Source of the DNA: Nemertoderma westbladi | Lineage: Eukaryota > Animalia > Xenacoelomorpha | Direction: 5' to 3' | NCBI GenBank assembly: GCA_032718475.1 | Contig: JAUCBJ010002408.1 | Span: 1 to 62,587, forward strand | Length of the DNA stretch: 62,587 nucleotides | In this document: piece after piece, positions 2,420 to 38,379 of the stretch | How positions within the stretch are numbered: position 1 is the first letter of the stretch | How the letters are laid out: every line of letters begins with the position of its first letter | Made by a program: the position numbers and the translations under genes | Notes under the pieces: generated by a model | Seen by the model: the letters and a program-made list of their open reading frames with translations, nothing else | What the model was told of the DNA's origin: nothing | Database searches by the model: none

Positions 2420-3205
2420 TTACCTATTAATGGTTGAATTGCCAGTGGAGACTTGGTTTATAATAACGCCACGTGGCGCAATAGAGACGGGTTGAGCTGC
2501 GTGTGGCGCGCCGGGGTAACTGGGACCCTCGACCTTACCTTGAGTCATAACGCCGGTCGTCGTGGCCACAGGGAACGAGTACGGTACCTCCAAACGAGCC
2601 GAACCCTCGCTCGGTTCCGTCTTGGTTCGCTTCCCCCCGCCGACTGTCTCTATAGCGACGGTGCGTTTCGTGGGGACCCGCTGGGCGGCTTCGATGTCCG
2701 GGGGCATGACGTCACCGGAAGGAGGTATGACGTCACCGGAAGGTTGGATTACGTCATCTGAAGGTTGTACTAGACTGGTCGGGGGAACGTAGGTAGTGCG
2801 ACGCGCTTCTGTCAAAAGTAAATCGTCTGGTTGCGTGGCAACGTTCATTCTGGAATGTTGAGGAATCTGAGCAGTAGGAAACACCTTGTTGGCTGTGAAC
2901 GCGGGTGTAAGAGGCGGCGCAGGGGGAGCCGTTGATTGGCTGCGCGCCGCCGACACCATGGACGGCGCCAACCCCGCCGCCACAGCAGCCGCAGCCGCCT
3001 CCATTTCCTCTTCCATCTCCCGGGACGCCTCGATATCGTCCTCCTCTACGTCTTCGTCTACGACCTCGTCCTCGGGTTTGACCTCCTCCCCGTTCACGGC
3101 TTCCTCCGTGGGTTGGTTCTTTACGAGTCGAGCCGAGATGGGCGAGCCGAGGATTAGTTGCGAGTGGAGGTGATCCTCAGGGAGGTCGAGCCCCAAACCG
3201 GCGTA
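2420..3205 (-). CDS. RFX: RFX C-terminal exon: acidic tract, Ala/Pro-rich region and possible basic NLS (KRT...KRTK)
   Basis: TTTCAG acceptor in frame with the ORF-track ORF; D/E-rich stretch as in RFX1-3 C-termini. The TAA overlaps a donor-like GTAATT, so the true end is uncertain. Confidence 0.85.
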   Translation of the reverse strand, partial: YAGLGLDLPEDHLHSQLILGSPISARLVKNQPTEEAVNGEEVKPEDEVVDEDVEEDDIEASREMEEEMEAAAAAVAAGLAPSMVSAARSQSTAPPAPPLTPAFTANKVFPTAQIPQHSRMNVATQPDDLLLTEARRTTYVPPTSLVQPSDDVIQPSGDVIPPSGDVMPPDIEAAQRVPTKRTVAIETVGGGKRTKTEPSEGSARLEVPYSFPVATTTGVMTQGKVEGPSYPGAPHAAQPVSIAPRGVIINQVSTGNSTINR

Positions 3206-6200
3206 CTGAAAGTAAAACACAAGACTATTTCATTAGGCATAAATTACTTTACGTTTCAGAAAAAAGTAGCTGTCATTATGTTCGTCGATGACACGAATTT
3301 GAGCCTCATTATATTATAATAAACCGTGTTTATTATATATTATGGAACGGCGGGGGGTAGCTCGCAGTTGGTTGAGCGCCGGGCCTGCAATCTATTGGTT
3401 GTAGGTTCAGCCCCGCCAGTGGTCCACTCAGCCTTTCATCCACTGGGGTCGATAAAATGAGTACCAGTTAAATAACTGGGAGCAAATCTTGGGATAGGAG
3501 TAGCGCCCACCCCTACCTTCGGGTAGCAGATAGGAGTAGCGCCCACCCCCTACCTTCGGGTAGCAGATAGTAGTAGCTTCTACCCCAACCTTCGGGTAGC
3601 AGATAGGAGTAGCGCCCACCCCTACCTTCGGGTAGCAGATAGGTAGTAGCGCCCACCCCTACCTTCGGGTAGCAGATAGGAGTAGCGCCCACCCCTACCC
3701 TCGGGTAGCAGATAGGAGTAGCGCCCACCCCTACCTTCGGGTAGCAGATAGGAGTAGCGCCCACCCCTACCTTCGGGTAGCAGATAGGAGTAGCGCCCAC
3801 CCCTACCCTCGGGTAGCAGATAGGAGTAGCGACCCACCCCTACCCTTCGGGTAGCAGATAGGAGTAGCGCCCACCCCTACCCTCGGGTAGCAGATAGGAG
3901 TAGCGCCCACCCCTACCTTCGGGTAGCAGATAGGAGTAGCGCCCACCCCTACCTTCGGGTAGCAGATAGGAGTAGCGCCCACCCCTACCTTCGGGTAGCA
4001 GATAGGAGTAGCGCCCACCCCTACCTTCGGGTAGCAGATAGGAGTAGCGCCCACCCCTACCTTCGGGTAGCAGATAGGAGTAGCGCCCACCCCAACCCTC
4101 GGGTAGCAGATAGGTGTAGCGCCCACCCCTACCTTCGGGTAGCAGATAGGAGTAGCGCCCACCCCTACCTTCGGGTAACAGATAGGAGTAGCGCCCACCC
4201 CAACCCTCGGGTAGCAGATAGGTGTAGCGCCCACCCCTACCTTCGGGTAGCAGATAGGAGTAGCGCCCACCCCTACCTACTTTTGGGTAGCAGATAGGAG
4301 TAGCGCCCACCCCAACCCTCGGGTTGCAGATAGGAGTAGCACCCACCCCAACCCTCGGGTAGCAGATAGGAATAGCGCCCACCCCTACCCTCGGGTAGCA
4401 GATAGGAGTAGCGCCCACCCCTACCTTCTGGTAGCAGATAGGAGTAGCGCCCACCCCTACCTTCGGGTAGCAGATAGGAGTAGCGCCCACCCCTACCTTC
4501 GGGTAGCAGATAGGAGTAGCGCCCACCCCTACCTTCGGGTAGCAGATAGGAGTAGCGCCCACCCCAACCCTCGGGTAGCAGATAGGTGTAGCGCCCACCC
4601 CTACCTTCGGGTAGCAGATAGGAGTAGCGCCCACCCCTACCTTCGGGTAACAGATAGGAGTAGCGCCCACCCCAACCCTCGGGTAGCAGATAGGTGTAGC
4701 GCCCACCCCTACCTTCGGGTAGCAGATAGGAGTAGCGCCCACCCCAACCTTCGGGTAGCAGATAGGAGTAGCGCCCACCCCTACCTTCGGGTAGCAGATA
4801 GGAGTAGCGCCCTCCCCTACCTTCGGGTAGCAGATAGGAGTAACGCCCACCCCTACCTTCGGGTAGCAGATAGGAATAGCGCCCACCCCTACCCTCGGAT
4901 AGCAGATAGGTGTAGCGCCCACCCCTACGTTCGGGTAGCAGATAGGAGTAGCGCCCACCCCTACCTTCGGGTAGCAGATAGGAGTAGCGCCCACCCCTAC
5001 CTTCGGGTAGCAGATAGGAGTAGCGCCCACTACTACCTTCGGGTAGCAGATAGGAGTAGCGCCCACCCCAACCCTCGGGTAGCAGATAGGTGTAGCGCCC
5101 ACCCCTACCTACGGGTAGCAGATAGGAGTAGCGCCCACCCCTACCTTCGGGTAACAGATAGGAGTAGCGCCCACCCCTACCTTCGGGTAGCAGATAAGAG
5201 TAGCGCCCACCCCTACCTTCGGGTAGCAGATAGCAGTAGCGCCCACCCATACCTTCGGGTAGCAGATAGGTGTAGCGCCCACCCCAACCCTCGGGTAGCA
5301 GATAGGTGTAGCGCCCACCCCAACCCTCGGGTAGCAGATAGGTGTAGCGCCCACCCCTACCTTCGGGTAGCAGATAGGAGTAGCGCCCACCCCTACCTTC
5401 GGGTAACAGATAGGAGCAGCGCCCACCCTTACCTTCGGGGAGCAGATAGGAGTAGCGCCCACCCCTACCTTCGGGTAGCAGATAGGTGTAGCGCCCACCC
5501 CTACCCTCGGGTAGCAGCTATATCGAAAGAGGAGCCTTCGGGTCGCCTCCGGCTTCGGCCGACTGTTTGCTTTGCATGATATTATGAAAATAAATTAGAA
5601 ATCATTGTAATTATTATGATACTATCTGACATTTTTAATATGGTAGGTTTGATATTATTAAGATCGCCGATTAAATTATGTATGGAATTATTTCTTATAA
5701 ACTCACCTGTTTAGCGTCTCCCATAACGGCTATGGGTGTGAGAGACATTGCCGCTGCCACCCTGTGCTCCACCAAGTAGAACATGTACTCGTCGTATAGT
5801 AATCGTATGAGATGGAAAGAGCCGAAGCTAGCGGCGCTACGAAGGGTTAAATCGCGAATAACCATAGAACTAAAAAATAATTAAACAAAAGTTAATATTA
5901 GTTAAATAAATTAGCCGTCTGATTGATACAACTAAACTGGAACTAAATCAATGAGGTGGTATCATCTCTCAATTCTTGACTTATAGAAGGAGCTTATATG
6001 AGATTGGTGGCACTAATGATTGAGGCAATTCCAGAGATCGCTAGTAGAAATCACATCCGAAAGGACCGACAGGTAGTAGAACAGACACAACTATTCACAG
6101 ACAACAGAACATTAACAGTAGATACATAAACGAACGCCATCAATACAAGCTCATCGAGATAAAACGAACAAGGGATGCAGGCAGATGAAGAATAAGATCG

Positions 6201-9200
6201 ATTACAACAAGCTGAAATATCACCCTGGAGTTTTAATCCACGTCGCAATGGCAGTTGCAACTGCCGGATTCCACTTGAGGAGTGGAAGTCGCTTTTTGAG
6301 AATTTGTTGAACTTTGAAAATTAGCTAAAGAAGCAACTCTAGATCTCGACCCTGAGTCTGAACTAAACAAGCCTTTTATGGAAGAGGACAATTTTAATGT
6401 TCTACGATCCAATTAGTTCAGTAAATTATTTTATGTACAATACTTATTATACATTATTATTTTATTTACTATTATTTTATTAAATAAACTTAAACAAATT
6501 TAAATTAATTTACGAAAAATAAACTAAAACAAATGTAGTTATAAAAAAAACCAATCACACAGACATTCTTCCATGTTACATCACACTACGTAACCCCTGC
6601 CAACCAATCAACCGCCCCCACTCATACAACTCAACCAATAACAAGCGAGGACTAACCTGTAGAAACTCCACTTCAATAGGAATTGTTTGGCTGCGTGAGC
6701 GTAGTTAGGCGAGTTCTCGTAGGGTTTAAGTATGCTGGATACCACGCCCTCCAACCAAACAGCCCACTGCTCCAACGAGTTCTGCTGCTGTAGAGTCACC
6801 TTGAAGTCCTGCTCCAACCGTTGAACAATAGAGTCCTCGCACTGACAGACCCATGATGCTTGTTCCTGCAGTTATATGAGAAAGTATTTAGTATTTGTAT
6901 CAATTAACAGTTGAGTAGTATATCTAATTATCTATCTATAATCGGCATTCTGCTTTGCAGTTGAATGAATGCTGTACCGGCTTGTCAACAAAATTGCGCC
7001 GCCACAACTTCCTATCACCCATGATTTTATCGAGATTATACGCATCGTCAAGGCCTGTATCCTTTTACAAACGTCTCAAGAACGTCAAGGGCTGTAAAGC
7101 GCAACATCGATAATGGCGAGTCGTGTCCTGTTAAGCGGAGGCGGTGTTTCGTATTGTATGGAATAAGTGGACAATTGGTGGAGCTGCCTCAATTATTGTG
7201 TTCGATGATATCCACCACCCGCCCATATCGCATGAACAATTATGCCTTAAGTAAGTGAAAATCAATACCTTTGCTTTCAATTAAATACAATATATTTACC
7301 CAATAACGGGTGTAGAGAGAGCTGCTGGCTTCATTTTGTAAATTGTGATTTTTAATTCATTATGACACGAGTTTATTTACGTACCGAGCGAGCGCTGCGA
7401 GGGAGGTTTACATAAATAAACAAGGGTCTTTAACGCTGAAAAGGGACCTTTACAAGCAATGATGTATGTAATTTTGTTACATTATGTCAACGTATTAGCG
7501 TTCGGTTTGTGAATAAAGGATTTTATGGATACTCATTTATACATTTTAATCTGTACTATATCGAATAGAAGTGAAATTGATTAACAGGTACACAGTATTA
7601 ATTATACATTTAAATCTAATTAAAGTTTATTGGAAGTTATCTCCTGCTTGGATGTGATAAATCATTAATCCATCTTGACTATAGTCGACTGAAGCAAACT
7701 TAGTCACTGTCTGAGTCCGTTCAGTTTTACTGAACACTGTCGTCACTTTCTTTGGTTATTTTAGTGTCTTCTATTGGACGTTTCGCCATAATGGATTACA
7801 GTACATGTTAAACAATTATTTACATACAGTAGCTAGTCCCGTCACTGCAAACTGGATAATAAAGCAGCAATCATTAACATAAATGGAAATAATACATTCT
7901 GGAATACGGTAACTTAAGTTTTTTCTATGGCATTGATTACTTTGCAACGTTCCGACCTATAGGCCGCAACGCGGCAAAGTGGATCTTTGCAGCGTTACGA
8001 GTAATTCACCAGAACGCTGTTGACATAATCTAACAAAAGTTATTTATGGTTGTTCAATTCTCCTAACTTAGTAAATATTAGAGTTTTAGAGCTTTTAGTT
8101 AAAGATAGAGTTAGAGCTTTTACGCATATTTAAAACAAAAATAAATTATTTCAATTTCAAAAGAACTTGATAAAATTGTGTGGTTGAGAAGTACAATACC
8201 AACCTGGACATTATGAAAGTCCACTCGGTTTAGGTCAGTCAACATCTGACTGATCTGTGACGTATTCTGTAGAACAGCACGAGCAGCCTGGGCTAGGTGA
8301 TTCAATGATGTGTAACGGCGGAGTGTCTGAGCAAGAGCGTTAACGCTGGAAACCTAGGCAACAGAAAATTGTATCATTGTGTATCAGAATAGTTTCGTGA
8401 TCGGATATTTAGTGACAAGGTATTTTGTGAACAACTTCTTTATGACCAGTTTTTTGTGACCCGCTTTTTACGACCAGTTTATAGTGAACCGGTGATTTGT
8501 GTCCAAGGATTTAGTGATCAGTATTTTTGTAACCAGCTTTTTAGTTAACGTTTTTATTTGTAACAAAGCTTTTAGTGACCAGGGGAAATGTGATCACCAG
8601 GGGAAATGTGATAACTTTGCAAGAGGATCTCCTGTCCACATTGCCAGTCACTGGACTTAAAGTCATTAATAAATACCCAAACGGTTCCCACCTACTGCTT
8701 ACCTATTAAAGCACCTGGTCAACACAATTAATACATAAATTGTTAATTCCCTCCCTTTGTATTGTTTGATATTGTGCCAAAACGGATATTAGTTTTATAA
8801 TTACGCTTAGCTCGAACCGAATTAGCGGGGCAACATAAATATTTACAGTAAATCTTACGCGCCTGTCACCTTCGATACCAATTTGTACACATAGGCAGAT
8901 AAATCTCTAAAAGGTTTTATGATATTTTTATAATTTTAGGTTGTAGTAAAGGGATAATTTACGACAATGAAGTGAAGCGCAGACAGTATGACTTAACTTT
9001 GTAATGGCAATTAATATACTCCAAGATATGACTTTGAGATGCAGATTAAAAAAATATATTATTTTATTTGCATTTAAATATTTAATATTATTAAACTTAA
9101 ATACAAGTTGACTAAATATATAAAATATTAGATGAAGCAGCCCAGTGTCTTCATTGATTAAGATAGATCGAGATACAAAGAAAATAATTTCAGACTTATG

Positions 9201-11498
9201 AACCTCGATTAGGTGTGCAAACTGAAACTATTACTACAAATAACAGCGACGAAACAAAAACTTAACTTTGTGTAAATGAAGACAAAACAGGTGGTTTTGA
9301 AATTTGAGAAATTATTTATTTTATATTATAATTAAAGCGGGTTGGGTGAATTCTTAGCCCGCGAGTATTCTTAGCCCGCGAGTATTCTTAGCCCGCGGGT
9401 ATTCTTAGCCCGCGGGTATTCTTAGCCCGCGGGTATTCTTAGCCCGCGGGTATTCTTAGCCCGCGAGTATTCTTAGCCCGCGAGTATTCTTAGCCCGCGG
9501 GTATTCTTAGCCCGCGAGTATTCTTAGCCCGCGGGTATTCTTAGCCCGCGGGTATTCTTAGCCCGCGAGTATTCTTAGCCCGCGGGTATTCTTAGCCCGC
9601 GAGTATTCTTAGCCCGCGGGTATTCTTAGCCCGCGGGTATTCTTAGCCCGCGAGTATTCTTAGCCCGCGAGTATTCTTAGCCCGCGAGTATTCTTAGCCC
9701 GCGGGTATTCTTAGCCCGCGGGTATTCTTAGCCCGCGGGTATTCTTAGCCCGCGAGTATTCTTAGCCCGCGAGTATTCTTAGCCCGCGAGTATTCTCAGC
9801 CCGCAAAAAAATAGAGTTTATTGTTTTGGTTCCCCCAATACGCCTTGAAACCTGGTCCTTTACTAACTCGCGGGCTAAGAATACTCGCGGGCTAAGAATA
9901 CTCGCGGGCTAAGAATACTCGCGGGCTAAGAATACTCGCGGGCTAAGAATACTCGCGGGCTAAGAATACTCGCGGGCTAAGAATTCATAATACCTTAAAG
10001 CGTATTATTTAGTATATCTTAATATATTTTTTGGTATTTATTTAACATTAATATATAACGATTCCACTTATCCTATTATTATATACTATTAATAATTATA
10101 TAATTATTTTATATTAATACTTTTACAATGTCATTCCAAACCATCAAATTTAGTGACGTAGAAGGTTTATTTAAATCGGGAAGTAAAAGTAACTCTACCG
10201 TAATGATAATGGAGATAATACGGATAAGTAGCCAGGAATGCATTGCAAGATATAAGGTAAGTAAAGTAAAATATATAAAATAGTTAACGTTACTAATATT
10301 AGTACCTACCTACCTCTAGTGTAAAAATAACAGAATTAGAAATAAATACAATAATGGGAAGTAATTAACTATTTTATTCAACATTAATTAATTAATGCCA
10401 TTGAGTACGGACAGCTCTAGATATTATATTCAAATTATAAAACGAATACACTATATTGCAATACATTACATCCCTTTACGATTTAACTTTACAATGACCT
10501 GAATGCCTAAAAAGTTTCAAATCTAAACGTAATGTTCTAAATATTCGACTTATTTATTTAATTAATTAATTATGAAAGTCTATTTTTATGGCTACATGTT
10601 GAAACTTTTACAATTAAGAAAAACGTGTTCTACTTATCGTGCATTAAATAAAGTTTGAAAAATACTGACAAAATTATTGCGTTCCTTTAAACAATAAAAT
10701 TCATATGCGATTTTCATCAGAAGTCGTTTCGGAATGTTAAGATTTTGGAATACAAATATCTTGCAATTTACTTTAAGTTTAAACTGTTCTGATACTCGTG
10801 GGTTTATTTTCACTAACTCATTTCATTACGTTTGTTCGTGTGACAAACAAACAACTTGGATCATCACACTGTAAAATTCTACTTTGCACACATTGTCACC
10901 CACTAAGTATTAAATTAATTACGCTATATTTTTCACTTAAAAAACAGTATTCCCACACCACCAAGAAACACGCAGAAGATCTTCTCCTCCAGGATTTGGA
11001 GCGGAATTATCCTCAGAACCGCGATTGGAGAGACCGCAGGATAGAGTGTCTCAGTAGTTGTTCCCCCTGTATAGGGTGTATCGACAAACTAACAGCTTAT
11101 ATAGGTGAGCACAATCACAAAAATAAATAACGAAAAAAATGAAAGCGGAAACAACTAAAGCAAAATCAACCAGATATAAATCCGAAAAGCGATATAATAT
11201 CGTTGCACTTTACAGATCCCACAGCCATGGAAACAACGTTTTGTTAACTTTAATTCGGCGAAATTCAATTTTTTTATGTCTTATTATGGGAAAGGAATAA
11301 AGATGTTAGTGGTTGAGGGCTTTGCTAACCGATGGTTACAATTTAATATTTGCTCATAATTGTAAATGTTATGTAAAATAGTTCTAAAATAATACAAATT
11401 AGTTTTCTATAGACAATTTATTATTATAAGATCAGAAGAAAATAAAACATAAGTTCTTGTATTTCTGTTCCATGTCTGTCTGTCTGTCTGTCTGTCTG

Positions 11499-11582
<84 letters not shown>

Positions 11583-14500
11583 CGAATGATGTGTGTGAGT
11601 GTCTGATCTTCCCGTTTATACGAACTTTTAAATAAATAACCTATGTCATTTAGGAAAGAGACTGTTTATACATCTTATACTACGGGTCGCTAATATCGAT
11701 TTAAATGAAGGAACTGCTAGTCGTGAAGCCGCAAATAAACTCTGTTCCTACCAAAACATAGAGGTTAGACCAACAACAGCTGAGGATTGGATGAAAGCCA
11801 CCTTAACGTCATGCAACTTGGTAAGAAAATTAGTTCAGAAGTAGTTACGAGCCATCTGAGAAAGGAATCTAATAAAACTAATCATATAATAATTTGAAAC
11901 ATAATTTTCTCCAGGGTGATGCATGGTTTCGTTACTAAATTAAAATGTTTAATAGCGAAAATTCGAATATGAAAGTAAAATATATAGTATGGGGGGCATA
12001 TTTTAGAGCCTTAGACCTTAGACGCTTTGAATCAACTAGGTCGAAAATTACATATGGGGCGATATACAGAAAAGTGGCCAAACCCAAACCAGAGTCATTT
12101 TTGTGTAAAAAATAAAGTTTCTCAAAACTCTTCTTGTTTTATGGTACAACTGACACTGCCAAACACACATTATAATCAATTATGAACAGTATATATCAAA
12201 TAAAACCATTTCAAGGGCGATTTCAGAACTGTTACTGTTTTACCGAGGTACCAATTATATATGCGATTTTATCAGCTTTAACGTTGGTTACAGGAAGGGA
12301 CAGTTTATGGTTTTCCCTCCCGATCTGAGGCTCTTCAAACCCACATATCTAAATATCTAAAGTTTTCGATGAATTTGTACAATTGTTTTTGTGTGTTACA
12401 GCTGAGTAATTACAGATTCTTAAAAAAGAACTGTCAAGGTGTGCCTGTAACCATAATTGCCGTTATTCAATTTTCGCCATTGGGGGGCATTTTTAGTGGT
12501 GTAGTAGAAAACAAAATGTTCCAGTATCTCCTATATGCTAACTATTATAGGCCTACATTCTACAGACTAACGATGTTTCTTAAAATTTATAGACAAATTT
12601 ACTGCTTTCATTTGGTATATAACATATTAACTTTTATTGATATCAGATAGAAACTAGAGCTCCTTATTTAACTGGGACTCCTAATCATTGTTTTTGTCAA
12701 AACATCACGTTTTCCGTGGTTTTTGTCGATATCAAGCAAAATTTAATGCGATTTATTTACAGTAGCGTTTAGCAAAAATATGGTTTCCTAGATTCCTAAT
12801 GAAAATGTCTACCTGTAACATTATATTTCATGAGATTTCATTCAGTAGAAATGGAATTACATCATGGTCTCACTTTTTTTTTATGTTTTGGCCACTTTTC
12901 TGTATATTGCTCCCGGTGTATTATTAATGTGTTAAATAGCAATGTATTATTTCTTAGCATTGTATCCTATGCCACAAACCCTTGATAAACTTAAATATAA
13001 TTACAAACAATAGTGTCAGTTACCCAGGCGACTGGCTGAACCAATGAATGAAGGATCAGTCAGTGAATGTAGGAACTGCGCCCCGATTGGTGCGTTAGTA
13101 TTCGAGACCGTAAGCATCTATTGGCTATAATTAATTAACCAATAAACGACTCTGGGCTCGGGAATAGAGACTATTAAACAATAATTGATAAGGTAAATTA
13201 ATCACAACACTTTTTATGAAATGATAAAAAGGTAATCGTTAATGCGATTTATTTACAGTAGCGTTTAGCAAAAATATGGTTTCCTAGTCGACTATTGTGT
13301 CATATCGACCATTACCATGACAATTGAATTATCTTTACCATTGAATAAATAATTAGTTTAATGTTTTTTAGATTAATAAATTAGTTTAATGTTTTTACAT
13401 TTATTCAGGCGGTGACGTACGCACAGTTAACCAAACCGCAGTGTGGCTGGTGCGAGATGTTGGCGAGATTGTTTCGAAGCCTATTGTTAAAAACAACAGG
13501 TGGGGCCGTCTCTATGTTTCCAAGCCATCACCAGACCATAATATTCGGTCTTCGGGTGGAGGAAAGCCAACGCAATACTCTTTGGGTCCCACATATATAT
13601 GTGTCAGGTAGGTTCGTGGATATGTGTCCGACGAATGTCTGTTTATTTGTACGGTAATTATGTGTTTATTTGTCCGTCGAATGTCTGTTTATATGTCCGG
13701 TAATTATGTGTTTATTTGTCCGACGAATGTCTGTTTATTTGTCCGGTAATTATGTGTTTATTAGTCCGGTAATTATGTGTTTATTTGTCCGACGAATGTA
13801 TGTTTATTTGTCCGGTAATTATGTGTTTATTTGTCCGTCGAATGTCTGTTTATATGTCCGGTAATTATGTGTTTATTTGTCCGACGAATGTCTGTTTATT
13901 TGTCCGGTAATTATGTGTTTATTAGTCCGGTAATTATGTGTTTATTTGTCCGACGAATGTATGTTTATTTGTCCGGTAATTATGTGTTTATTTGTCCGAC
14001 GAATGTCTGTTTATTTGTCCGGTGATTATGTGTTTATTTGTCCGACGAATGTCTGTTTATTTGTCCGGTAATTATGTGTTTATTAGTCCGGTAATTATGT
14101 GTTTATTTGTCCGTCGAATGTCTGTTTATATGTCCGGTGATTATGTGTTTATTTGTCCGACGAATGTATGTTTATTTGTCCGGTAATTATGTGTTTATCT
14201 GTCCGACGAATGTCTGTTTATTTGTCCGGTAATTATGTGTTTATTTGTCCGACGAATGTATGTTTATTTGTCCGGTAATTATGTGTTTATTTGTCCGACG
14301 AATGTCTGTTTATTTGTCCGGTGATTATGTGTTTATTTGTCCGACGAATGTCTGTTTATTTGTCCGGTAATTATGTGTTTATTAGTCCGGTAATTATGTG
14401 TTTATTTGTCCGGTAATTATGTGTTTAATTGTCCGACGAATATTGTTTAGTTGACCGGTTGGTTCGTTCACGTGTATCGTATAAATTTAACAATCTGCAC

Positions 14501-17500
14501 ATTATTACAGGAGAAAAGACGGCTGAAGAACAATTCCTGAAAGATATAGAGAAGAGAGGATTACCGAGTTCGAACACCAACCTCCACGTGTGCGCAACAC
14601 GGATCGGTAGATGGGACCAACTTGTTGACTTTATGTCTCTAGGAGACGAGAAACGACGGGGATTGGACCGTCTTATCGTCCATTGCATACACAACGACCT
14701 CAACGAATCCAACCCATTCCCCAGACTCGTCGTTAAGTCTATGGAACCGTACGAGGTTCTAGAATGCGCCTTACATCTCGCTTCCGTTTACCACGGTTAC
14801 CCTAGCAACGCACTCCCCCACGATAAAGTTCTTAGACGAGAGAAAGGTGACAGAGGGGTGGACTTTCAGCTCGCAGAAATTGTCTCAAAAATATAATTGC
14901 CAGAGATTCTTCCTACGCACAGTAACAAAGTTATTCCGGACATGGGATTAAGGTTAAACAACGCTATGTTCAAAACATTGATAAACACTTAAAGGAAATG
15001 AAATTACATTACAAGCAACTCTGTTTCTGTGTTGGTTAAGTTCTGTATTGTTATAATGTTATTTGTTAAAAGGTAGCACGTTATCGCCTTTCTTAAAATA
15101 ACATCCACGTCATTTTGGCTGCAGATTTCACTATAAAATAAATCAATTTTACACTAAAATCTTCGTCACTTAAACTTAAATCATCAATCGCCATAAAAAA
15201 TTTGAGTCACAATTTTTATTTCCTAACCAAGCGAGTTTAAGGAATGTCACAAGTCTGGGGACACGTGACTTTCAAATAAATTTACCAGCTGAGAGAAAAA
15301 TACGAAAATTACAGATAAGGAAATATCTAACCAAAACAATAAAATATACTGTTAGAACTTTAGGGAAAGGAGAACGACACAGATGTGGCATTTCCAATAA
15401 ATTATTTCCAAATGGGAAAAAGTAGCACTGGGTGGGTGTTAGTGTTAGAACTACCCCCTCTACGTAGTAGAATAGGTGTACAGACAAAATTGTCAAGCTC
15501 TACTGCTGCAGAGAATAATGAGATCATTTTGTGAGGAACAACAAGTTATCGGTATATTCGAGATGGGATTCCCGCCAATATATCCCACTTATCTCGTACA
15601 ACTATAAGAGATGGCTTCATAGATAATAAATGGACCATTTATATAACTCACCTTAGCTTTGAGCATCTCAGCAGGGATAACTTTCAAAGAATTCTTCAAC
15701 CAATTTTCCAAACTCTTCGCGAAGTTTCGAATGGCCTGTGTGAGAGTGCTTGGTATGGGGCGTAAAACATCGGGAATTAAAACCTCAACAAGAGCCTAAA
15801 ATACAACAGAATTAGCAGATGATACAGACAGAAGGTGGACTGACTGACTGCATGGAATTAAAGTTAAATTAAAACGTGAAAGTTATGAATTAAATCAAAG
15901 TTCGATAAAAAAAAAAACTACTTTCCTAATTGACATATTTTAAAGGAATATTGTTATAAACATAGTGCAGCATAATACAGCATAGAGAGATGCAGCATCG
16001 GTATAAAGAACTATCTAAAATAACAAACCTGATACAACAATGTATCACAGACACGGAAATATTCAATAACTGGTGTAGAAGCAGCGAAGGCCATGAGTTT
16101 AACCTTAGAGAGTCGGGGTTCAGAATCCTCAGTAACCTCGTCAGACCTCCAGAAGGTCTGCCACAGAGCCTCGATAAGTGGAAACTGGAGATTCACAACT
16201 ATATCGACAATCGATTCACAATGTTCTCTGTGGGGAGTAATAATGTGGTGCATTAGGGGGGGGATTAAATCGCGGTTTACAGTATATAGGGTCCCCGGTT
16301 TTCAGGACCAAGATTTTAAATTTTGAAAATAAAAATTGAATTAAATTTTTCTTTAACAGTAAATATATTTTCTTGAGAACTAAATGTAATTGGCGTTTTA
16401 TCGTAACAAAAAAAAACGGGATTACATTTTATCCAGGGATCCTTTTTTGGGATCGAGATCCTTATTGAACAAAAATAATTTGGACGCTCGCCACCACACC
16501 AATAATATGACATAACGGCTAATAGACCCCCTAACCTGTAGAGATTTTGGAGTGCAGCTACATCCTCCTCCGTGCAACCCTCAGGCATCTTATCAGCTGG
16601 TATAGTCAGGGCTGGGAAGGTTGGCATAGCGTCGGCGGGATCACCGAGGTATTGCTGGTGACTCATCGAAGAATCACCGCCCATTCCAGGGCCGCCACCT
16701 GGGCCTTTAGACCTAGTGAGATGTGAGTAGACAGATAGTACGCAACGCATACATATAGATACAAGGATACGCGCACACAGTAAATATATATCGCTGGTAA
16801 TCCTGTGAATTTTGGATCAAGGTAGAACACCAACACATTATATATCAAAGTCAGAAACCTCAGAAAAGCTCAAAACTACGTTAAACTAATAGTGGAAATT
16901 GTTTCAAGTCAAATGTGTTAAACCATCTTAACAATTTACAAAGGAAATTAAAGCAAAAGTCATGATGTCAGTAAAGTCAGTAAGGTGTGTCAGGTGACCA
17001 TGGTAACACAGAACAAACACGTCATGATCGTGGTAAGATTCTAAAGGTTTTAGGTTTTATTAAGGTATAATTTATTATTGTTAATAAATTAAATACTAAC
17101 TTTTTGGTGGGTATCGGCTGTTGTCTCATAGGAACTGTGTGCATATCATCCTGCAACTGATTTAGAGGGGAACCTGGCTTGATACGAATTCCGTAGTAGT
17201 GGTATTTCGAGTTACCTCTAAGTAACATAATAATCAGGTTAAAGAAAAGGAACATTTGGTTAATAAGACTAAATCATAAACATCGTATTCATACCTCTAT
17301 TATTGGGAAATGGATCTGGGATGGGCGCGGAACATGGAGGTATGGTAACCTGGGATGGGCGCGGCACATGAGGTATGGTAACCTGGGATGGGCGCGGAAC
17401 ATTGAGATATGGTAATCTGAGAGGGGCGCGGCACATGGGGGTATGGGGATCGGGTATGAGTGTGGCACATGGCGATGGAGATCTGGGATGGTTGTGACAA

Positions 17501-20500
17501 TGTGGGTATCGGGATCTGGGATTGGTGCGGCATTTCAAACGGTATAGCTAACTAATTGTAGTACCGTTAAGGTAAATTTAACGGGAAGTCAAGTTCTGTA
17601 ATTAATGGCGATATTAGAAGAAACAATCAATTATAATTTGCTAAATAATATATAATTTGTTCAACAACAAAAATCAAAACAACAATGGGGTTAGTAATGT
17701 TGAGAGTTAGTAATGTAATAATAATTAAGTATTTGCCGTTAGTTGTTAAGATTAAGTCATTATGGTTAGTAAGATTGAGTGTTTGTGGTTAGTAAGATTG
17801 AGTGTTTGTGGTTAGTAAGATTTAGTGTTTGTGGTTAGTAAGATTGAGTGTTTGTGGTTAGTAAGATGGGGTGTTTGTGGTTAGTAAGATTGAGTGTTTG
17901 TGGTTAGTAAGATTGAGTGTTTGTGGTTAGTAAGATGGGGTGTTTGTGGTTAGTAAGATTGTGTGTTTGTGGTTAGTAAGATTGGGTGTTTGTGGTTAGT
18001 AAGAATGAGTTTCTGTGGTTAGTAATATTGAGTGTTTGTGGTTAGTAAGATTGAGTGTTTGTGGTTAGTAAGATTGAGTGTTTGTGGTTAGTAAGATGGG
18101 GTGTTTGTGGATAGTAAGATTGAGTGTTTGTGGTTAGTAATGGTTAGTAAGATTGAGTGTTTGTGGTTAGTAAGATGGGGTGTTTGTGGTTAGTAAGATT
18201 GTGTGTTTGTGGTTAGTAAGATTGGGTGTTTGTGGTTAGTAAGAATGAGTTTTTGTGGTTAGCAATATTGAGTGTTTGTGGTTAGTAAGATTGAGTGTTT
18301 GCGGTTAGTAAGATTGAGTTGAGTGATTGTGGTTAGTAAGATTGAGTGTTTGTGGTTAGTAAGATTGAGTGTTTGTGATTAGTAAGATTGGGTGTTTATG
18401 GTTAGTAAGATTGAGTGTTTGTGGTTAGTAAGATTGAGTGTTTGTTGTTAGTAAGATTGAGTGTTTGTGGTTAGTAAGATTGAGTGTTTGTTGTTAGTAA
18501 GATTGAGTGTTTATGGTTAGTAAGATTGAGTGTTTGTTGTTAGTAATATTGAGTGTTTGTGGTTAGTAAGATTGAGTGTTTGTTGTTAGTAATATTGAGT
18601 GTTTGTGGTTAGTAAGATTGAGTGTTTGCGGTTAGTAAGATTGAGTTGAGTGATTGTGGTTAGTAAGATTGAGTGTTTGTGGTTAGTAAGATTGAGTGTT
18701 TGTGATTAGTAAGATTGGGTGTTTATGGTTAGTAAGATTGAGTGTTTGTGGTTAGTAAGATTGAGTGTTTGTTGTTAGTAAGATTGAGTGTTTGTGGTTA
18801 GTAAGATTGAGTGTTTGTTGTTAGTAAGATTGAGTGTTTGTGGTTAGTAAGATTGAGTGTTTGTTGTTAGTAACATTGAGTGTTTGTGGTTAGTAAGATT
18901 GAGTGTTTGTTGTTAGTAAGATTGAGTGTTTGTTGTTAGTAAGATTGGGTGTTTGCGGTTAGTAAGATTGAGTTGAGTGATTGTGGTTAGTAAGATTGAG
19001 TGTTTGTGGTTAGTAAGATTGAGTGTTTGTGATTAGTAAGATTGGGTGTTTATGGTTAGTAAGATTGAGTGTTTGTGGTTAGTAAGATTGAGTGTTTGTT
19101 GTTAGTAAGATTGAGTGTTTGTGGTTAGTAAGATTGAGTGTTTGTTGTTAGTAATATTGAGTGTTTGTGGTTAGTAAGATTGAGTGTTTGCGGTTAGTAA
19201 GATTGAGTTGAGTGATTGTGGTTAGTAAGATTGAGTGTTTGTGGTTAGTAAGATTGAGTGTTTGTGATTAGTAAGATTGGGTGTTTATGGTTAGTAAGAT
19301 TGAGTGTTTGTGGTTAGTAAGATTGAGTGTTTGTTGTTAGTAAGATTGAGTGTTTGTGGTTAGTAAGATTGAGTGTTTGTTGTTAGTAATATTGAGTGTT
19401 TGTGGTTAGTAAGATTGAGTGTTTGCGGTTAGTAAGATTGAGTTGAGTGATTGTGGTTAGTAAGATTGAGTGTTTGTGGTTAGTAAGATTGAGTGTTTGT
19501 TGTTAGTAAGATTGAGTGTTTGTGGTTAGTAAGATTGAGTGTTTGTGATTAGTAAGATTGGGTGTTTATGGTTAGTAAGATTGGGTGTTTATGGTTAGTA
19601 AGATTGAGTGTTTGTTGTTAGTAAGATTGAGTGTTTGTGGTTAGTAAGATTGAGTGTTTGTTGTTAGTAAGATTGAGTGTTTGTGGTTAGTAAGATTGAG
19701 TGTTTGTGATTAGTAAGATTGGGTGTTTATGGTTAGTAAGATTGGGTGTTTATGGTTAGTAAGATTGAGTGTTTGTGGTTAGTAAGATTGAGTGTTTGTT
19801 GTTAGTAAGATTGAGTGTTTGTGGTTAGTAAGATTGGGTGTTTGTTGTTAGTAAGATTGGGTGTTTGTTGTTAGTAAGATTGAGTGTTTGTTGTTAGTAA
19901 GATTGAGTGTTTGTGGTTAGTAAGATTGGGTGTTTATGGTTAGTAAGATTGGGTGTTTATGGTTAGTAAGATTGAGTGTTTGTGGTTAGTAAGATTGAGT
20001 GTTTGTTGTTAGTAAGATTGAGTGTTTGTGGTTAGTAAGATTGGGTGTTTGTTGTTAGTAAGATTGGGTGTTTGTTGTTAGTAAGATTGAGTGTTTGTGG
20101 TTAGTAAGATTGGGTGTTTGTTGTTAGTAAGATTGAGTGTTTGTTGTTAGTAAGATTGAGTGTTTGTGGTTAGTAAGATTGGGTGTTTGTTGTTAGTAAG
20201 ATTGGGTGTTTGTTGTTAGTAAGATTGAGTGTTTGTGGTTAGTAAGATTGGGTGTTTGTTGTTAGTAAGATTGAGTGTTTGTTGTTAGTAAGATTGAGTG
20301 TTTGTGGTTAGTAAGATTGGGTGTTTGTGGTTAGTAAGATTGGGTGTTTGTTGTTAGTAAGATTGAGTGTTTGTGGTTAGTAAGATTGGGTGTTTGTTGT
20401 TAGTAAGATGGGGTGTTTGTTGTTAGTAAGGTTGAGTGTTTGTGGTTAGTAAGATTGAGTGTTTGTGGTTAGTAAGATTGGGTGTTTATGGTTAGTAAGA

Positions 20501-23500
20501 TTGAGTGTTTGTGGTTAGTACGATTGGGTGTTTATGGTTAGTAAGATTGAGTGTTTGTGGTTAGTAAGATTGGGTGTTTGTGGTTAGTAAGATTGGGTGT
20601 TTGTTGTTAGTAAGATTGAGTGTTTGTGGTTAGTAAGATTGAGTGTTTGTGGTTAGTAAGATGGGGTGTTTGTGGTTAGTAAGATTGAGTGTTTGTTGTT
20701 AGTAAGATGGGGTGTTTGTGGTTAGTAAGGTTGAGTGTTTGTTGTTAGTAAGATTGAGTGTTTGTTGTTAGTAAGATTGGGTGTTTGTGGTTAGTAAGAT
20801 TGGGTGTTTGTTGTTAGTAAGATTGAGTGTTTGTGGTTAGTAAGATTGAGTGTTTGTGGTTAGTAAGATGGGGTGTTTGTGGTTAGTAAGATTGAGTGTT
20901 TGTTGTTAGTAAGATGGGGTGTTTGTGGTTAGTAAGGTTGAGTGTTTGTGGTTAGTAAGATTGAGTGTTTGTTGTTAGTAAGATTGGGTGTTTGTGGTTA
21001 GTAAGGTTACATACACCGACCTGGTGCCAAGTCGACGTGTTCTCAACCCCAGGAACACAGATCGGATGAGCTTCCCGAAGGATGCCGCGTTTACTGGTTC
21101 AATCTGCTGCTCCTGGCAGTGCAGCAAATAATGATGATACAATGTGCATCGGGGCAACGACACACCTTCAGCAGTCTCATAGTTGTCTATTAGCCATTGG
21201 ACCTACCGTAAAGAATTAAATTGATTTTCAGTTGATTGGAAAGCAATAAATAAATTAATCAAAATAATCATTGAGGAAGTTAATCAATTAATACAGTAGT
21301 TAGAAGCGGTATGATTTAAATAATTACAACATTTTTTACCCCACAATCAAACACAATATCATGGAATACGGTGTGCTATTTCAGGTACACGACTAACCCC
21401 ACCCCCCCCCCCCCCCAAATTTTTTCTAAAAATTTTACTGAGATCGCGTGAAACACAAAAAAGTTTGCCCTCCCGACCAATTAGTGGCTGAGTAGAAAGG
21501 ATTCTTTTCGCTCACACTTTCGATACAAGCCTGTGTAAAAGTGTCTCCTGTTAATGCACTCAGTAGTAAAAGCGCAAAAAATCCTGTCAAACTGTAATCG
21601 TTGCCCCAGTTCGAGTTTATCTGTTTCTATTTCAAATTTTCATGCGATCTCAACAAGTTTACTTTCGTGTACCAGAATTAGGATACTATATTCTGGGATA
21701 TGGAGAATATTGGTGGAGAAGAGAAGTTTACAGTAAATGCAAGAATATTAAACCATTGGAAACATAAAGAGCATGATTGTGAATTCCTGCAGAGGTAATT
21801 TTATTACGTCATTGATTGCTGATGACGTCATTGATTGCTGATGACGTAGATTATAACCTGGTGCCAAGACGTCGAGTTTTGAGGCCGGGGAATACGGATC
21901 GAATAAGTTTACCGAAACTGGCGGCGTTAACCGGCTCCAGCTTGTTAACGTTACAGTGCTGGAGGTAGTGGTTGTACAGTAGCGACCGCGGCAGGGACAC
22001 ACCCTCTGATGTCTCGTAATTGTCCACCAACCACTGCACCTAATCCAACAGAAAGCTCTCTAAACCCCCAACAATAGATAGACCCAGTCATTATTACTTA
22101 TACATTGTGTTTCAAGTCAGTTACCGAAATTTTCAGAAAATAATTATAACTTTATTCGAAAATTAAAATGTTTTGTAACTCAACAGTAGGTAAGTAGAGG
22201 ATGTAATAGGTAGAACTTTTTACGGCTGAAAATAAATTGTTTTTACGGCGCGTGGGATTCCCGTAGCGTCCATAGTACACTGACAATCAATAAGCACTTT
22301 ACCGGTACACCCGGCACAGGTCAAACACCACTTACTTTCATTTTACAGATCTTCTGCAAACTGTACCGGTACAGTGGTAGGCCTAGCCCTAGCCCACATA
22401 TATTAACTAGACATAGGCCTCATGTCAAAACGGTATATTAACGATTAGAAAAATAACCTATTTAGTATATTGAAAATTAATTTTTAGCCTATAATTTTTA
22501 ATAACAATATAGACATTTTTTTATTTAAATAAATATTTCAATTTTCGAATAAAATTACTTACTCCAGGTCATAGTCTACCACCACTTAATAAGATTGCAT
22601 TTCTCGTTAGTTACTATGGGAAATAGTGTGATAAAGACATTACATCACTACTAGTCTTGTGAGATAAAAAGTTTCCAACAATACCTTAAGTAATGAAAGG
22701 ACTTTTTATTATTTTTATGATTTATCAAATTTAATTAAAATAACAAATTTGTATTATAGATGTAAATTCATTTGAGAAAAAATGTAAGGGAAATAACTCA
22801 TCTCTAGGCTTAGTTGTCAGAAATTCAGATGTTATGCATATTATTCATTATTGAAATGTGCCGTTATGTTATGTGCCAAAACTCATACAATGTGCCAATA
22901 CCATGGCTTATTTATTTAATAACAAAACGCCTACAAAACTCAATAGGCAATTAATACCCAAAAAGGGTACGTATAACAGTTGAAACTTTGCTACATATAT
23001 AAATGGCCACCGATTAGCATATTACTACGTATAATTTACGTTACAATATGAAAAATGATCAGTCCGTAACATTTACAGTTGCACATAATTGTATAACTTC
23101 ATGCATTCGGCGAAGATTTATCCCTCAGAGATAACCGACCATTACGGGAAACTCATTTCATCAATAAATTGTTTTATAACATTGGACTGTTATACTGTAG
23201 GAAAGGTACATGCACGGTAAATTTGAATATGAGTTGTTTAAAAACATCGATAATAATACATCATGCGAATAAAAGATGTGGTATTTTGGTAAATAAATCT
23301 TTAATTCCTAACTTTCTAATTGTTTATTATTATTGCTTAACGCCTTTGTTTTAATTTAATTGATACACCAAGTTAAGTAAATACATAGCGGATTTTAATT
23401 GGACAAATTTTAACATAACTTAGCTTGTTTTATTAATTCAATTAAAACAATCATTAAGAATCATTAATATTAATTAAGTGCTTGGATCCTTCACATATTA

Positions 23501-26500
23501 ATTAATTAATGAAAAATGTGAGAAGAATGTGTTTTGAACGAGGATTAATATTTCCATTTATTTTAGAAAACACAAAACTAACTAAAGAAGTAACATTCAA
23601 ACAGAAATAGAGATGGCCTCGCATGCAAACGCCGTAACCTATCTGCGGTGTCCGGCACAAGGGTCGCCTGAACTGCGATAGATTGGATGGGATATGGATA
23701 AGCCATTATAAAGGTAAGCAAAAAATCAGACGTGATACTGAGTTATTAAATAGGCCTAACTTTAATTTCAATTTAAAAAGGTTAAATTGTTTTTGTTTTT
23801 TATTGTTAGAAGGCCGTAGGGCTTATTGCTGTCTATAGTCAAAAAACGTTTAAGTTTGTCTGTATGTTTGTTTGTGAAGATTGATATTGGCTTGAAATTG
23901 TTTTGGTAAAGTCTGATTTCAACGGTACCTGTCATCTGAAATATGATTTTATATCTTTGGATGCAGTCTACTAAACTAACTGTACAATCACATTAAAAAA
24001 AAGGGCGATGATCGGTTTTCGATATAGCTTATAGCATCCAGCTTGCTGTCTCTATAGAGTTTTATTATATAAACATAAACCTTTCAGATTACGATGTTTT
24101 CATTCGAGGCCATCAAAATAGCTAAATTTTTAATGATTCTCTCAAATTTAACTTCTTCTAGATTACGACATTTACATACTGAGGCTATCGAATCAACACA
24201 AAGTGCATTGAAACGGAAAACAATAAACATCTAAAGGGAGTCTAACACATGGATGGAGGCTTACAGTGGCGGGCGAGGCGCAACTGGCTGGCGTGCGTCC
24301 GACGTGGACGGTGGTGGTGAGATGGGTCGCGCTAACCGGCCCCCCTGTCCCATCCATCTCGGGGGCGCTCGCCGTAGCCACGCCGGCTTGCGTCGCGTAA
24401 ATATACGCCGCTCCGATTGCGTCAATGGGCTGGTACTGGTGCTGTTGCTACGCAACGTATACAGAGGGCAGGTGGAAGAAAGAAATAAATAAACCGTGAA
24501 ATAAAGAGTCCCGCAACCTTTTAGTTTACCCGTAACCAAGGAGACACAATAGGACATCCACCAGTATTAATATAAAAATAAGTACGATAACAACAAATAG
24601 TTGGTAAATAACATCTATAAAAAGTAACACAAATTAAACGAACATGTAAAAGATATAAAAAATTCATTATACTATAATAATAAAAGGTTGTTTGTCTGTC
24701 TCTTTACCAAACGATTTATCAGAATTTTCCAGCAGAATCCCTCCCGCTGTATATTAAATTAAATCACAAAAATGTTTTCAAATTGCCTATAAAAACCTTT
24801 TAAAATTTGTAAAAGAAATAAATAATATAATTTTGAGGTTCTCAACCAAATTAATTTCTCAAGTGTTTCGGTTTTTTAATACTTCGAGTTAGTTTATTAG
24901 TTATATAAATTATTTATATCCAAGCTGGGTATATTATATAGTTGAAACAGAGACTTGTCACTGATCTCTGATCTCTGGAATCTCCGGTCAGTTTTTTGGT
25001 CTCCGGATAGGTCTCTGGTTCCCGGGTATTGAAAACATACATATTAACCAGAGATCAGTGATTTTCAAATTAAAATTATATATTTATCTTGTACAAGATA
25101 ACATGAAAAATGACGATTTTATCACAAAAACTTGTTTACTATAAAAATAATTACTTTAATTTTCAAAAATTTTGATACACCGCTTCAACAAAATTATATA
25201 GCAACTTATGTAAAAGTAAAGACAGCGCTTTTCACCTTGTTGTAGGCTATATATTACGGCCCCCAAATGAAGATAACGAGCGTAACGAGACTTGCAATAG
25301 GGTCGAGTAGAGTTCTGCACCTGTGCACTTTATTGCACCAAATTATAAGTACAAAAATAAGCCAAGTCTCTGATCTCCGGCTCTGGTCTCCGGTATTTTT
25401 CAAAATAATTCTCTGGGAAGGTATCTGGTTCACCGGGATTAAGAAAAGGTCTCTGTTTCAACTCTAGTATATTATTTAGTTTTGTTACGAAATTGTGACG
25501 TCACTAACTACCCCCCCCCCCCCCCCATTTCCCATGCGAGAATATGTTATTATTATAAAACATAATTGTCTTTTTTTTCCAATCTGCTGACTCGACATGT
25601 AACTTAGCAATTAACAGTAACACCCGCGACCACCGGTCACAAACGATTGACCGTACAAACTCATACGAATGGGGGCGAGCCTCGCATTAAATAAACTAAT
25701 CAGCATCGATGATATGTTACGTGGATTCATAATGTTTCGAGGTTTAGTCTAATGTTGCTCCAGCTGTTCATGTGGCCGTACGTAATTCCACTTCCGAGTG
25801 ATGTGAACAAGTCGTTGGTACATAGTTTAAGCTTCAAAGTAAAAAACATCTCGAACACAAATTTAAAAAACAAAGATATATTGTAAGACTGAATTAAATA
25901 ACTAATTACGTAGAATAAACTCACAGTAGCCGGCGACGCACGCGTTGTGTGAGTTATAGGAGCGCCCTCTGCCGCCATGGTGGAGCCTTGCAGTAAGTAG
26001 GTGGTCTCTCCTTGCGGCACGGCCACTGTGGTTCCACCGGGACTGGTCTGGTAGTAAGTTGTTGTGTTCCCCGACGATAGCTGCTGTTGCTGTTGAGGTT
26101 GTTGGTATATACCGTCGGCAGTTGTTGTGTAATTCCCGTTCGCCCTAAATATAAAAAAAACGTATATAATTGGAAACAGTTATCGCTTTAGTTTCATTTA
26201 CATTGTGGCTATCTTACGTACTTACAATTAGGCCAAGGGATTACCCGTGCGCTCCCCCCAGAACTAAACTCCCCCAGAGGAAACTAACTCATTTAGCTAC
26301 CAATGCAAAGCAGAAACGCCCCCCTTGGTTATTCACTTTAAAACATTCGCACCGAAACGAAAACAGCCCTGGCCCCTACGCGGGGATCGAACCCACGACC
26401 AATGTGAATTTAAGGCAACGGATTTAACCACTGCGCCAAAGTGCGCTAACACTAATTACTTACCGTGTTATGTAAAAGTAAAATTGTTAAGTATATTCAT

Positions 26501-37560: not shown

Positions 37561-38379
37561 ACAACAAATTTGGCGGAAAATTCAAATCTCTAGATACAGA
37601 TGAAACCAAAGCATTTTTAATCAATTATTTGATTTAATTAAACTACTTTTACCCGGCAAAACGTGTCCAATTTCAAAGCGAAATTTCACAACTATACTGT
37701 TGCATAATTGTGTAGAGATGAGGACACTAAACGTTGCCTCAAATTCCCTCTTAAATTGTTATATCTACAAAAAAATTATCGAAAAATAATTGGGTTGTTT
37801 CCAATGATGTCGAAAATCAAGTAATCACATTAAAGCACGGGTTGACAAACTCATTCCGAGAATTATATTTTACGCAATTAAAGCAGTTCACAACATTAAA
37901 GTCTTCATCTCATATGGCCTAACCTGAAACCAAAAGATTTCAACAATGGATTTATTTTCAAACAAAATTAAAGCTTTCTGTAATACGGTTATTTAAGCGA
38001 GCAAGCAAGTAATTATTCTCTATACATTGATCATATCAATCATGATCTACATGAAATATCAAGAAAAATGATTAAATTCCAAGCGCGTTTTGTAATTCCC
38101 CCGACATGTCTGTTGGAGTTGGACTTGACATAAAGCAGCTATAAATCCAGACAGGTGGTGACTCGAATTTTCGTTATTGCATTGAATTGTGTCCATTGCA
38201 TCAATTATCCTTTTTTAGTTGAATAGTTTTTCCATTGTTTTCCCAGCACAAATTTGGTTCAAAATATACAAAAAGTAAAAAAATAATAAAAAAAAACATT
38301 TTAATTCAATTTTCGGTATTGTATCAAATATGCTACAGCATTTGAATAGCCTTTCCTAAATTTAAAAATAAACGGCGAC

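What the first reader, a model, noticed from the sequence alone, without database searches (positions are those of the whole stretch)
21021..22039. Tandemly duplicated, apparently mutually exclusive DNA-binding-domain exons in an RFX gene
Seen: two 182-nt exons 655 nt apart, each with AG/GT ends, phase 0->2 and no stops. They are 48/61 aa identical, but synonymous positions are heavily diverged (e.g. CTT ATT CGA TCC GTA vs CTC ATC CGA TCT GTG) and the flanking introns are unrelated, which argues against an assembly artefact or recent duplication. Splicing in both or neither shifts the frame, and the downstream GNSKYHYYG exon is single. The 13 substitutions cluster in the helix-2/loop region ([16 protein letters not shown] vs [16 protein letters not shown]) and before the wing (FPGLK vs FLGLR); NAASFGK and TRRLGTR are invariant. 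Known: swappable DBD exons exist in FOXP1 (18/18b) and Drosophila FoxP; I do not recall one for RFX/daf-19. Inference: one locus encodes two RFX DBDs, diversifying by splicing rather than by paralogy.
Basis: partly seen in the sequence, partly recalled or inferred. Interest (0 to 1): 0.92.

Follow-up and report, generated by a model that had tools for sequence, protein, structure and literature searches.

The report
Twin DNA-binding exons in RFX gene
An animal gene for RFX, a regulator of cilia genes, carries two old, intact copies of the exon for most of its DNA-binding domain, and it likely uses one or the other to make two versions of the protein; a similar pair sits in the same gene of two other invertebrates.

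Summary
Observation confirmed. Two 182-nt exons (22039-21858 = A, 21202-21021 = B) each encode positions 5-64 of the Pfam RFX DNA-binding domain and are 47/60 identical. Synonymous sites are saturated (6/23 four-fold sites match), pN/pS is 0.20 and the flanks are unrelated, so both copies are old and selected. Including both or neither gives a stop within 2-4 codons, so mutually exclusive splicing backed by NMD is the best reading (0.8). It is inferred: no RNA run was listed. New evidence: 2 of 16 metagenome loci (mollusc-like) hold a tandem pair of the same exon, their extra copies orthologous and conserved. Shared or independent origin is unresolved. Against a FOXP1-like specificity switch: helix 3 and the wing start are identical, and differences fall mostly in columns that vary in the family anyway. 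Copy A does have Pro51, seen in 0/144 RFX1/2/3-type domains but present in RFX5. A 3.3-kb array with 133 TACTAAC starts 18 nt after B, a possible Quaking/SF1-type element. Five targeted paper searches showed no RFX case. The scan had noted twin DNA-binding exons in other factors, not RFX.

The parts
21858..22039 (-). DBD exon copy A (upstream), 182 nt, phase 0 to 2; rare residues Ser11, Leu20, Val31, Pro51
   Evidence: (PF02257, 88.9 bits, cut-off 27)
21021..21202 (-). DBD exon copy B (downstream), 182 nt, phase 0 to 2; closest to lamprey RFX (55/60) and RFX1-type domains (54/60); rare residues His23, Gln33
   Evidence: (85.4 bits)
21203..21857 (-). 655-nt intron between the copies; AG-free for the last 175 nt; too long to force steric exclusion by length alone
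17747..21005 (-). 23-nt tandem array in the intron after copy B, with 133 TACTAAC on the sense strand, the first 18 nt after the donor; candidate Quaking/SF1-type element (inferred)
17101..17217 (-). single shared exon that completes the wing of the DNA-binding domain
   Evidence: (AG/GT, no stop in the nine-exon model)
25925..26144 (-). upstream exon U1, ending in the conserved RASPAT motif, phase 0 donor
24265..24447 (-). candidate extra in-frame exon U2 (phase 0-0, GC3 0.74, ends CASPAT); cassette or alternative pre-DBD exon, unproven
   Evidence: no BLASTP alignment to U1; weak match to scorpion P0014, E 0.026
5707..16712 (-). six downstream coding exons of the RFX1/2/3-type gene (B, C and dimerisation regions), single copy

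Best explanation
An RFX1/2/3-type gene holds two old tandem copies of its main DNA-binding-domain exon, both kept intact by selection, which are likely spliced one at a time into otherwise identical proteins. Shown: anatomy, age, selection on both copies, and that both-in or both-out transcripts hit a stop at once. Inferred: cells choose A or B through weak 3' splice sites and intronic regulators, with ACUAAC-binding STAR/SF1 proteins a candidate; NMD would remove the errors. Both isoforms would likely bind the same X-box, since the recognition helix and wing are unchanged, but would differ in affinity or partner contacts through helix 2, the helix 2-3 loop and the helix 3-wing junction.
For: Equal length, phase and AG/GT ends. 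pS 0.85, pN 0.166, pN/pS 0.20 with bootstrap range 0.11-0.31. 6 of 23 four-fold sites identical; neutral decay of one copy never kept 47/60 identity in 10000 runs at each of d = 0.3, 0.5 and 1.0. Both copies keep 31 of 31 invariant columns among 68 distinct family domains. A+B and skip-both stop within 2-4 codons. A and B have the two lowest pyrimidine fractions (0.53, 0.59) of 12 acceptors examined. The same arrangement occurs in L012 and L014; their upstream copies are orthologous (98/97 support) with pN/pS 0.17, and double inclusion stops at codon 65 in both. In C. elegans, 14 of 19 non-3n mutually exclusive clusters rely at least in part on NMD (PMC4165533 passages).
Against: No transcript shows either junction. 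In 19 protein clusters (169 of 199 members listed; echinoderms, chelicerates, corals, bivalves, octopus, prawn, lampreys, moth-like), no named isoform pair differs in this exon. None of these clusters is close to the window's lineage or to L012/L014. No protein over 80% identical to the L012 upstream copy was among the 120 best of 3388 hits, so that copy is not seen as an annotated product. No convincing docking/selector pairing was found. Tandem arrays are common in this window (37 rows), so the TACTAAC array may be incidental. It follows the downstream copy here, whereas the conserved CTAAC in L012/L014 follows the upstream copy.
Confidence: 0.8

Rival explanations
1. One copy is effectively constitutive, and the other is a rarely used cassette whose co-inclusion makes a stop codon and lowers RFX output through NMD (a poison exon), so its protein product hardly matters.
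For: A+B gives a stop four codons into B. No annotated isoform with a second version of the exon was found in 19 clusters or among the top hits for the L012 upstream copy.
Against: A poison exon needs no amino-acid constraint. Yet synonymous sites are saturated while both copies keep all 31 invariant columns, and the L012/L014 upstream copies show pN/pS 0.17.
Confidence: 0.1
2. The two exons belong to separate transcription units: each is tied to its own promoter or upstream exon (U1 with one copy, U2 with the other), or copy A ends a short transcript. The choice would then be made by promoter or 3' end, not by a free splicing switch.
For: There are two candidate upstream exons with similar ends and phase 0 donors. 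Human RFX diversity is reported to come mainly from start sites (PMC5838959 passages).
Against: U1-U2-A also reads through in frame, and U1 and U2 do not align. A transcript ending at A would lack the second half of the wing. Both copies keep a GT donor in the right phase, as do all four L012/L014 copies.
Confidence: 0.07
3. Assembly artefact, recent duplication or decaying pseudo-exon.
For: None found. The long tandem array next to B could disturb an assembly in principle.
Against: Only 120/182 nt are identical, third positions are saturated, the flanks are unrelated, and the neutral simulation gave 0 of 10000.
Confidence: 0.02

Closest known systems
FoxP / FOXP1 alternative forkhead exons (Santos et al., PMC3002244; abstract and section 15 read)
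   Same: Winged-helix transcription factor; tandem duplicate of an exon for part of the DNA-binding domain; one gene, two domains.
   Different: In FoxP both isoforms were shown by RT-PCR, the pattern is pan-bilaterian, and residues critical for DNA binding differ. Here splicing is inferred, the pair is patchy among animals, and helix 3 and the wing start are identical.
Tandem duplicated exon substitution events (PMC8373072 and PMC9741552, passages; the one supplement of the first searched)
   Same: Homologous exons of equal length and phase under purifying selection; such events are reported to arise repeatedly in the same gene families.
   Different: RFX occurs 0 times in the main text of either paper and 0 times in the supplementary table of PMC8373072, where FOXP1 occurs 5 times.
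RFX1/2/3 subfamily: human RFX1-3, C. elegans DAF-19, hRFX1 structure 1DP7
   Same: PF02257 domain, E 1.1e-28 to 1dp7_P; same exon borders as in coral and lophotrochozoan-like loci; B, C and dimerisation regions present.
   Different: Reported RFX isoforms differ in start site or N-terminus, or lack the domain (PMC5838959 passages). None with an exchanged domain was seen in the passages read.
RFX5 DNA-binding domain (8zjr_M)
   Same: Copy A has Pro and Lys at positions 51 and 54, as RFX5 does in the alignment.
   Different: Copy A is otherwise an RFX1/2/3-type domain (up to 53/60 to that group; E 4e-08 to RFX5). The match is two residues and probably convergent.

Membership tests
RFX1/2/3 transcription factors | RFX winged-helix DNA-binding domain above the Pfam cut-off | tested here: met
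   88.9 and 85.4 bits, cut-off 27
RFX1/2/3 transcription factors | B, C and dimerisation regions downstream, in one open frame | tested here: met
   nine-exon model, 520 codons, no stop, 55-68% identical to 27 RFX proteins
RFX1/2/3 transcription factors | Nine DNA-contacting residues conserved | tested here: inconclusive
   The papers mark them only in figures. Helix 3, Arg18 and positions 55-60 are identical in A and B and invariant or nearly so among 144 domains.
Tandem duplicated, mutually exclusive exons | Adjacent homologous exons with the same length, phase and canonical splice sites | tested here: met
Tandem duplicated, mutually exclusive exons | Both copies under coding constraint | tested here: met
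Tandem duplicated, mutually exclusive exons | Transcripts contain exactly one of the two exons, and each is used | not testable with these tools
   no RNA holder listed
Tandem duplicated, mutually exclusive exons | A mechanism of exclusion (steric, competing RNA pairing, NMD) | tested here: inconclusive
   NMD-compatible stops shown; intron 655 nt; best docking candidate reached by 5 of 150 shuffles, one of six tests
FOXP1-type DNA-specificity switch | The alternative exons differ at residues that read DNA bases | tested here: not met
   Predicted helix 3 and the wing start are identical; the differences are at 5, 11, 19, 20, 23, 27, 30-34, 51 and 54. Judged from secondary structure and paper text, not from contact coordinates.
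FOXP1-type DNA-specificity switch | Isoforms bind different motifs or are tissue-regulated | not testable with these tools
   needs SELEX/PBM and RNA data

The most novel reading that the evidence does not exclude
Twin DNA-binding exons are a hidden, recurrent or ancient feature of animal RFX1/2/3 genes: this lineage, a mollusc-like lineage, and possibly corals, where an unplaced variant exon shares Ser11, Gln27, Asn32 and Lys54 with copy A. A Quaking/SF1-type switch, here amplified into a 133-site array, would select a domain with an RFX5-like helix 3-wing junction, so that one gene runs two cilia programmes.
Probability: 0.2. Interest if true: 0.8.

Novelty: new member of a known kind. Interest (0 to 1): 0.62.

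Why it matters
RFX domains are among the most conserved DNA-binding domains, and RFX factors control cilia genes across animals (PMC10530576, abstract and passages). Vertebrates diversified the subfamily by gene duplication (RFX1-3). A splice choice between two domains would be a second route. Finding the same exon duplicated and retained in at least two distant lineages suggests repeated benefit, or an old state lost many times. The pair is also a clean natural experiment: two proteins identical except for 13 residues outside the core DNA contacts would show what helix 2 and the helix 3-wing junction do. Gene annotation may be missing this exon in other invertebrates.

Tried and rejected
RNA evidence: no RNA holder listed, so no reads were laid; this blank is no evidence either way. 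No whole genome is held, so RFX paralogue number is untested. Competing RNA pairing: six docking/selector tests in the window, L012 and L014; one gave 0 of 20 shuffles, then 5 of 150 on retest, with irregular pairings; not accepted. Origin of the duplication: AU tests rejected neither A+B as a clade (p 0.19) nor A with the L012/L014 upstream copies (p 0.19), nor those three with the coral variant (p 0.26); 60 columns are too few. Species placement: the window protein has no close relative (best 72%) and falls outside the protostome groups in a quick tree without firm support. The tree used wrong exon borders (11 stops) and was discarded. The two-domain eel protein P0001 repeats part of the domain and the next exon almost letter for letter, so it looks like a recent duplicate or model error and was not counted. 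Scans of genome contigs (3 weak bacterial matches) and viral contigs (none) gave nothing. The 50%-cluster search with copy B gave a best identity of 90%, no close relative. The third cluster look-up gave no named relative of L012/L014. No paper giving residue-level contacts of 1DP7 was found. The skip-both frame was not properly tested for L012/L014. bioRxiv supplements were closed and subscription journals are mostly not searched, so catalogues of invertebrate mutually exclusive exons could still list Rfx.

Full report
Observation. The two exons are as described: A at 22039-21858 and B at 21202-21021 on the minus strand, 182 nt each, AG/GT ends, phase 0 to 2, no stops, 655 nt apart. They are 47/60 identical in protein and 120/182 in DNA, with 46, 53 and 19 of 60 matches at codon positions 1, 2 and 3. 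Each matches Pfam RFX_DNA_binding positions 5-64 of 79. A six-frame HMM search finds only these two copies in the window. The flanks are no more alike than shuffles.

The gene. A nine-exon model from 26143 to 5707 reads 520 codons without a stop and is 55-68% identical to 27 RFX1/2/3-type proteins. It has no close relative: the best identity in the tree alignment is 72%, and a quick tree puts it among non-protostome animals without firm support. No genome is held.

Age and selection. Between A and B, pS is 0.85 and pN 0.166, ratio 0.20 (bootstrap 0.11-0.31). Only 6 of 23 four-fold sites match, which is chance level. Neutral decay of one copy never kept 47/60 identity in 10000 runs at each of three divergences. 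Both copies keep all 31 columns invariant among 68 distinct family domains. So neither is an artefact, a recent copy or a dead exon.

Splicing logic. U1-A-17217 and U1-B-17217 read through. Including both stops four codons into B, and skipping both stops two codons after the junction. In C. elegans, 14 of 19 such non-3n clusters depend at least partly on NMD (PMC4165533, passages). A and B have the weakest pyrimidine tracts of 12 acceptors examined (0.53 and 0.59 against 0.65-0.76; small sample). Actual use of either exon is inferred, not shown (see Tried and rejected).

The same pair elsewhere. Their best matches are mollusc proteins. Their downstream copies are 60/60 identical. Their upstream copies are 48/60 identical with pS 0.85 and pN/pS 0.17, group together at 98/97, and give a stop at codon 65 if both are included. 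Two loci that span from the RASPAT exon to the GNSKY exon have one copy (L002, lophotrochozoan-like; L007, coral-like), and L001 has no introns there. The other 11 do not span both neighbouring exons. All four L012/L014 copies carry Pro39, shared with lophotrochozoan RFX proteins and absent from both window copies. That favours a separate duplication, but AU tests reject neither history. In 19 clusters of proteins (169 of 199 members listed), no named isoform pair differs in this exon. The Acropora cluster holds two unplaced genomic ORFs (P0158, P0165) with a variant exon that shares Ser11, Gln27, Asn32 and Lys54 with copy A. Whether that is a tandem exon, a paralogue or another coral species is untested.

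What differs between A and B. The model of A (mean pLDDT 80) has helices at 2-5, 18-32 and 39-49. The differences are at 5, 11, 19, 20, 23, 27, 30-34, 51 and 54. RFX reads the major groove with its wing and the minor groove with helix 3 (PMC2533330 and PMC4333399, passages). Helix 3 and positions 55-60 are identical, and the rest of the wing is in the shared exon. The differing columns are mostly those that vary in the family (mean entropy 1.42 against 0.23 bits). Some residues are rare among 144 distinct domains: in A Pro51 (0), Val31 (1), Ser11 (2) and Leu20 (2); in B Gln33 (1) and His23 (2). Pro51 and Lys54 match RFX5 in the alignment. Net charge is +3 for A and +1 for B. I therefore expect the same X-box with different affinity or partners (inference). 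A new motif is possible, but I put it at about one in four.

Possible regulator. A 23-nt array fills 17747-21005. It has 133 TACTAAC on the sense strand, the first 18 nt after B's donor. UACUAAY downstream of an exon is linked to tissue-specific inclusion and is bound by Quaking and SF1 (PMC13004596, abstract start and passages). L012 and L014 keep a CTAAC 23-24 nt after their upstream copy in otherwise diverged introns. Against this: the motif follows the other copy here, arrays are common in this window (37 rows), and I chose the motif after seeing it. It is a lead only. Competing RNA pairing was not supported.

Comparison with what is known. The kind is known. FoxP has a tandem duplicated forkhead exon across Bilateria (PMC3002244, abstract and section 15), and such events are reported to recur in the same families (PMC9741552, passages). 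For RFX, five targeted searches showed no report in their listings: 1 unrelated paper; 25 of 118 listed; 25 of 34 listed; 4 listed; 0. RFX is absent from the text of two human catalogues and from the supplement of one. 'daf-19' and 'RFX' are absent from the C. elegans survey, and 'mutually' is absent from the human RFX isoform survey. PMC2873420 and PMC10530576 were seen as passages only. Earlier scan notes describe twin DNA-binding exons in Tbx2/3, Pax2/5/8 and pangolin, none in RFX; I did not test them.

Verdict. The feature is real, old and selected, and probably spliced mutually exclusively (0.8). It appears new for the RFX family and occurs in at least one other lineage, but it belongs to a known kind, lacks RNA proof here, and leaves the core DNA contacts unchanged. 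Interest 0.62.

Noticed in passing
window 24265-24447 (-): GC-rich open exon candidate U2 between U1 and the twin exons, phase 0-0, with an internal ATG, ending like U1 in SPAT. Scorpion RFX proteins also end a pre-DBD exon with CASPTT (weak match, E 0.026).
   Followed up: partly
window 17747-21005: 3.3-kb minisatellite whose 23-nt unit holds the branch-point/Quaking motif on the sense strand, starting right after exon B.
   Followed up: partly
L012 958-996 and L014 7514-7546: Conserved in-frame micro-exon (39 and 33 nt) with a conserved 24-nt acceptor stretch, 74-90 nt before the upstream DBD copy; not seen in any of 509 fetched proteins.
   Followed up: partly
proteins P0158 and P0165 (Acropora cluster): Unplaced genomic ORFs with a variant RFX DBD exon, 83% identical to window copy A; may be a second exon, a paralogue or another coral species.
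   Followed up: partly
window 30436-31506 (-): Reverse-transcriptase ORF (PF00078). Further long ORFs on + at 27129-28127, 38346-40242 and 42196-43296 look like LINE fragments by eye.
   Followed up: no
window 3493-5517, 9350-9984, 13621-14459, 29287-29701: Several other minisatellite arrays (periods 36, 17, 46, 32) in or near this gene's introns.
   Followed up: no
window 2423-3229 (-): Long acidic, Ala/Pro-rich open frame, probably the last RFX exon; no Pfam match.
   Followed up: no
window about 26370-26450 (-): tRNA-like stretch in the intron before U1, seen by eye; possibly a SINE head.
   Followed up: no
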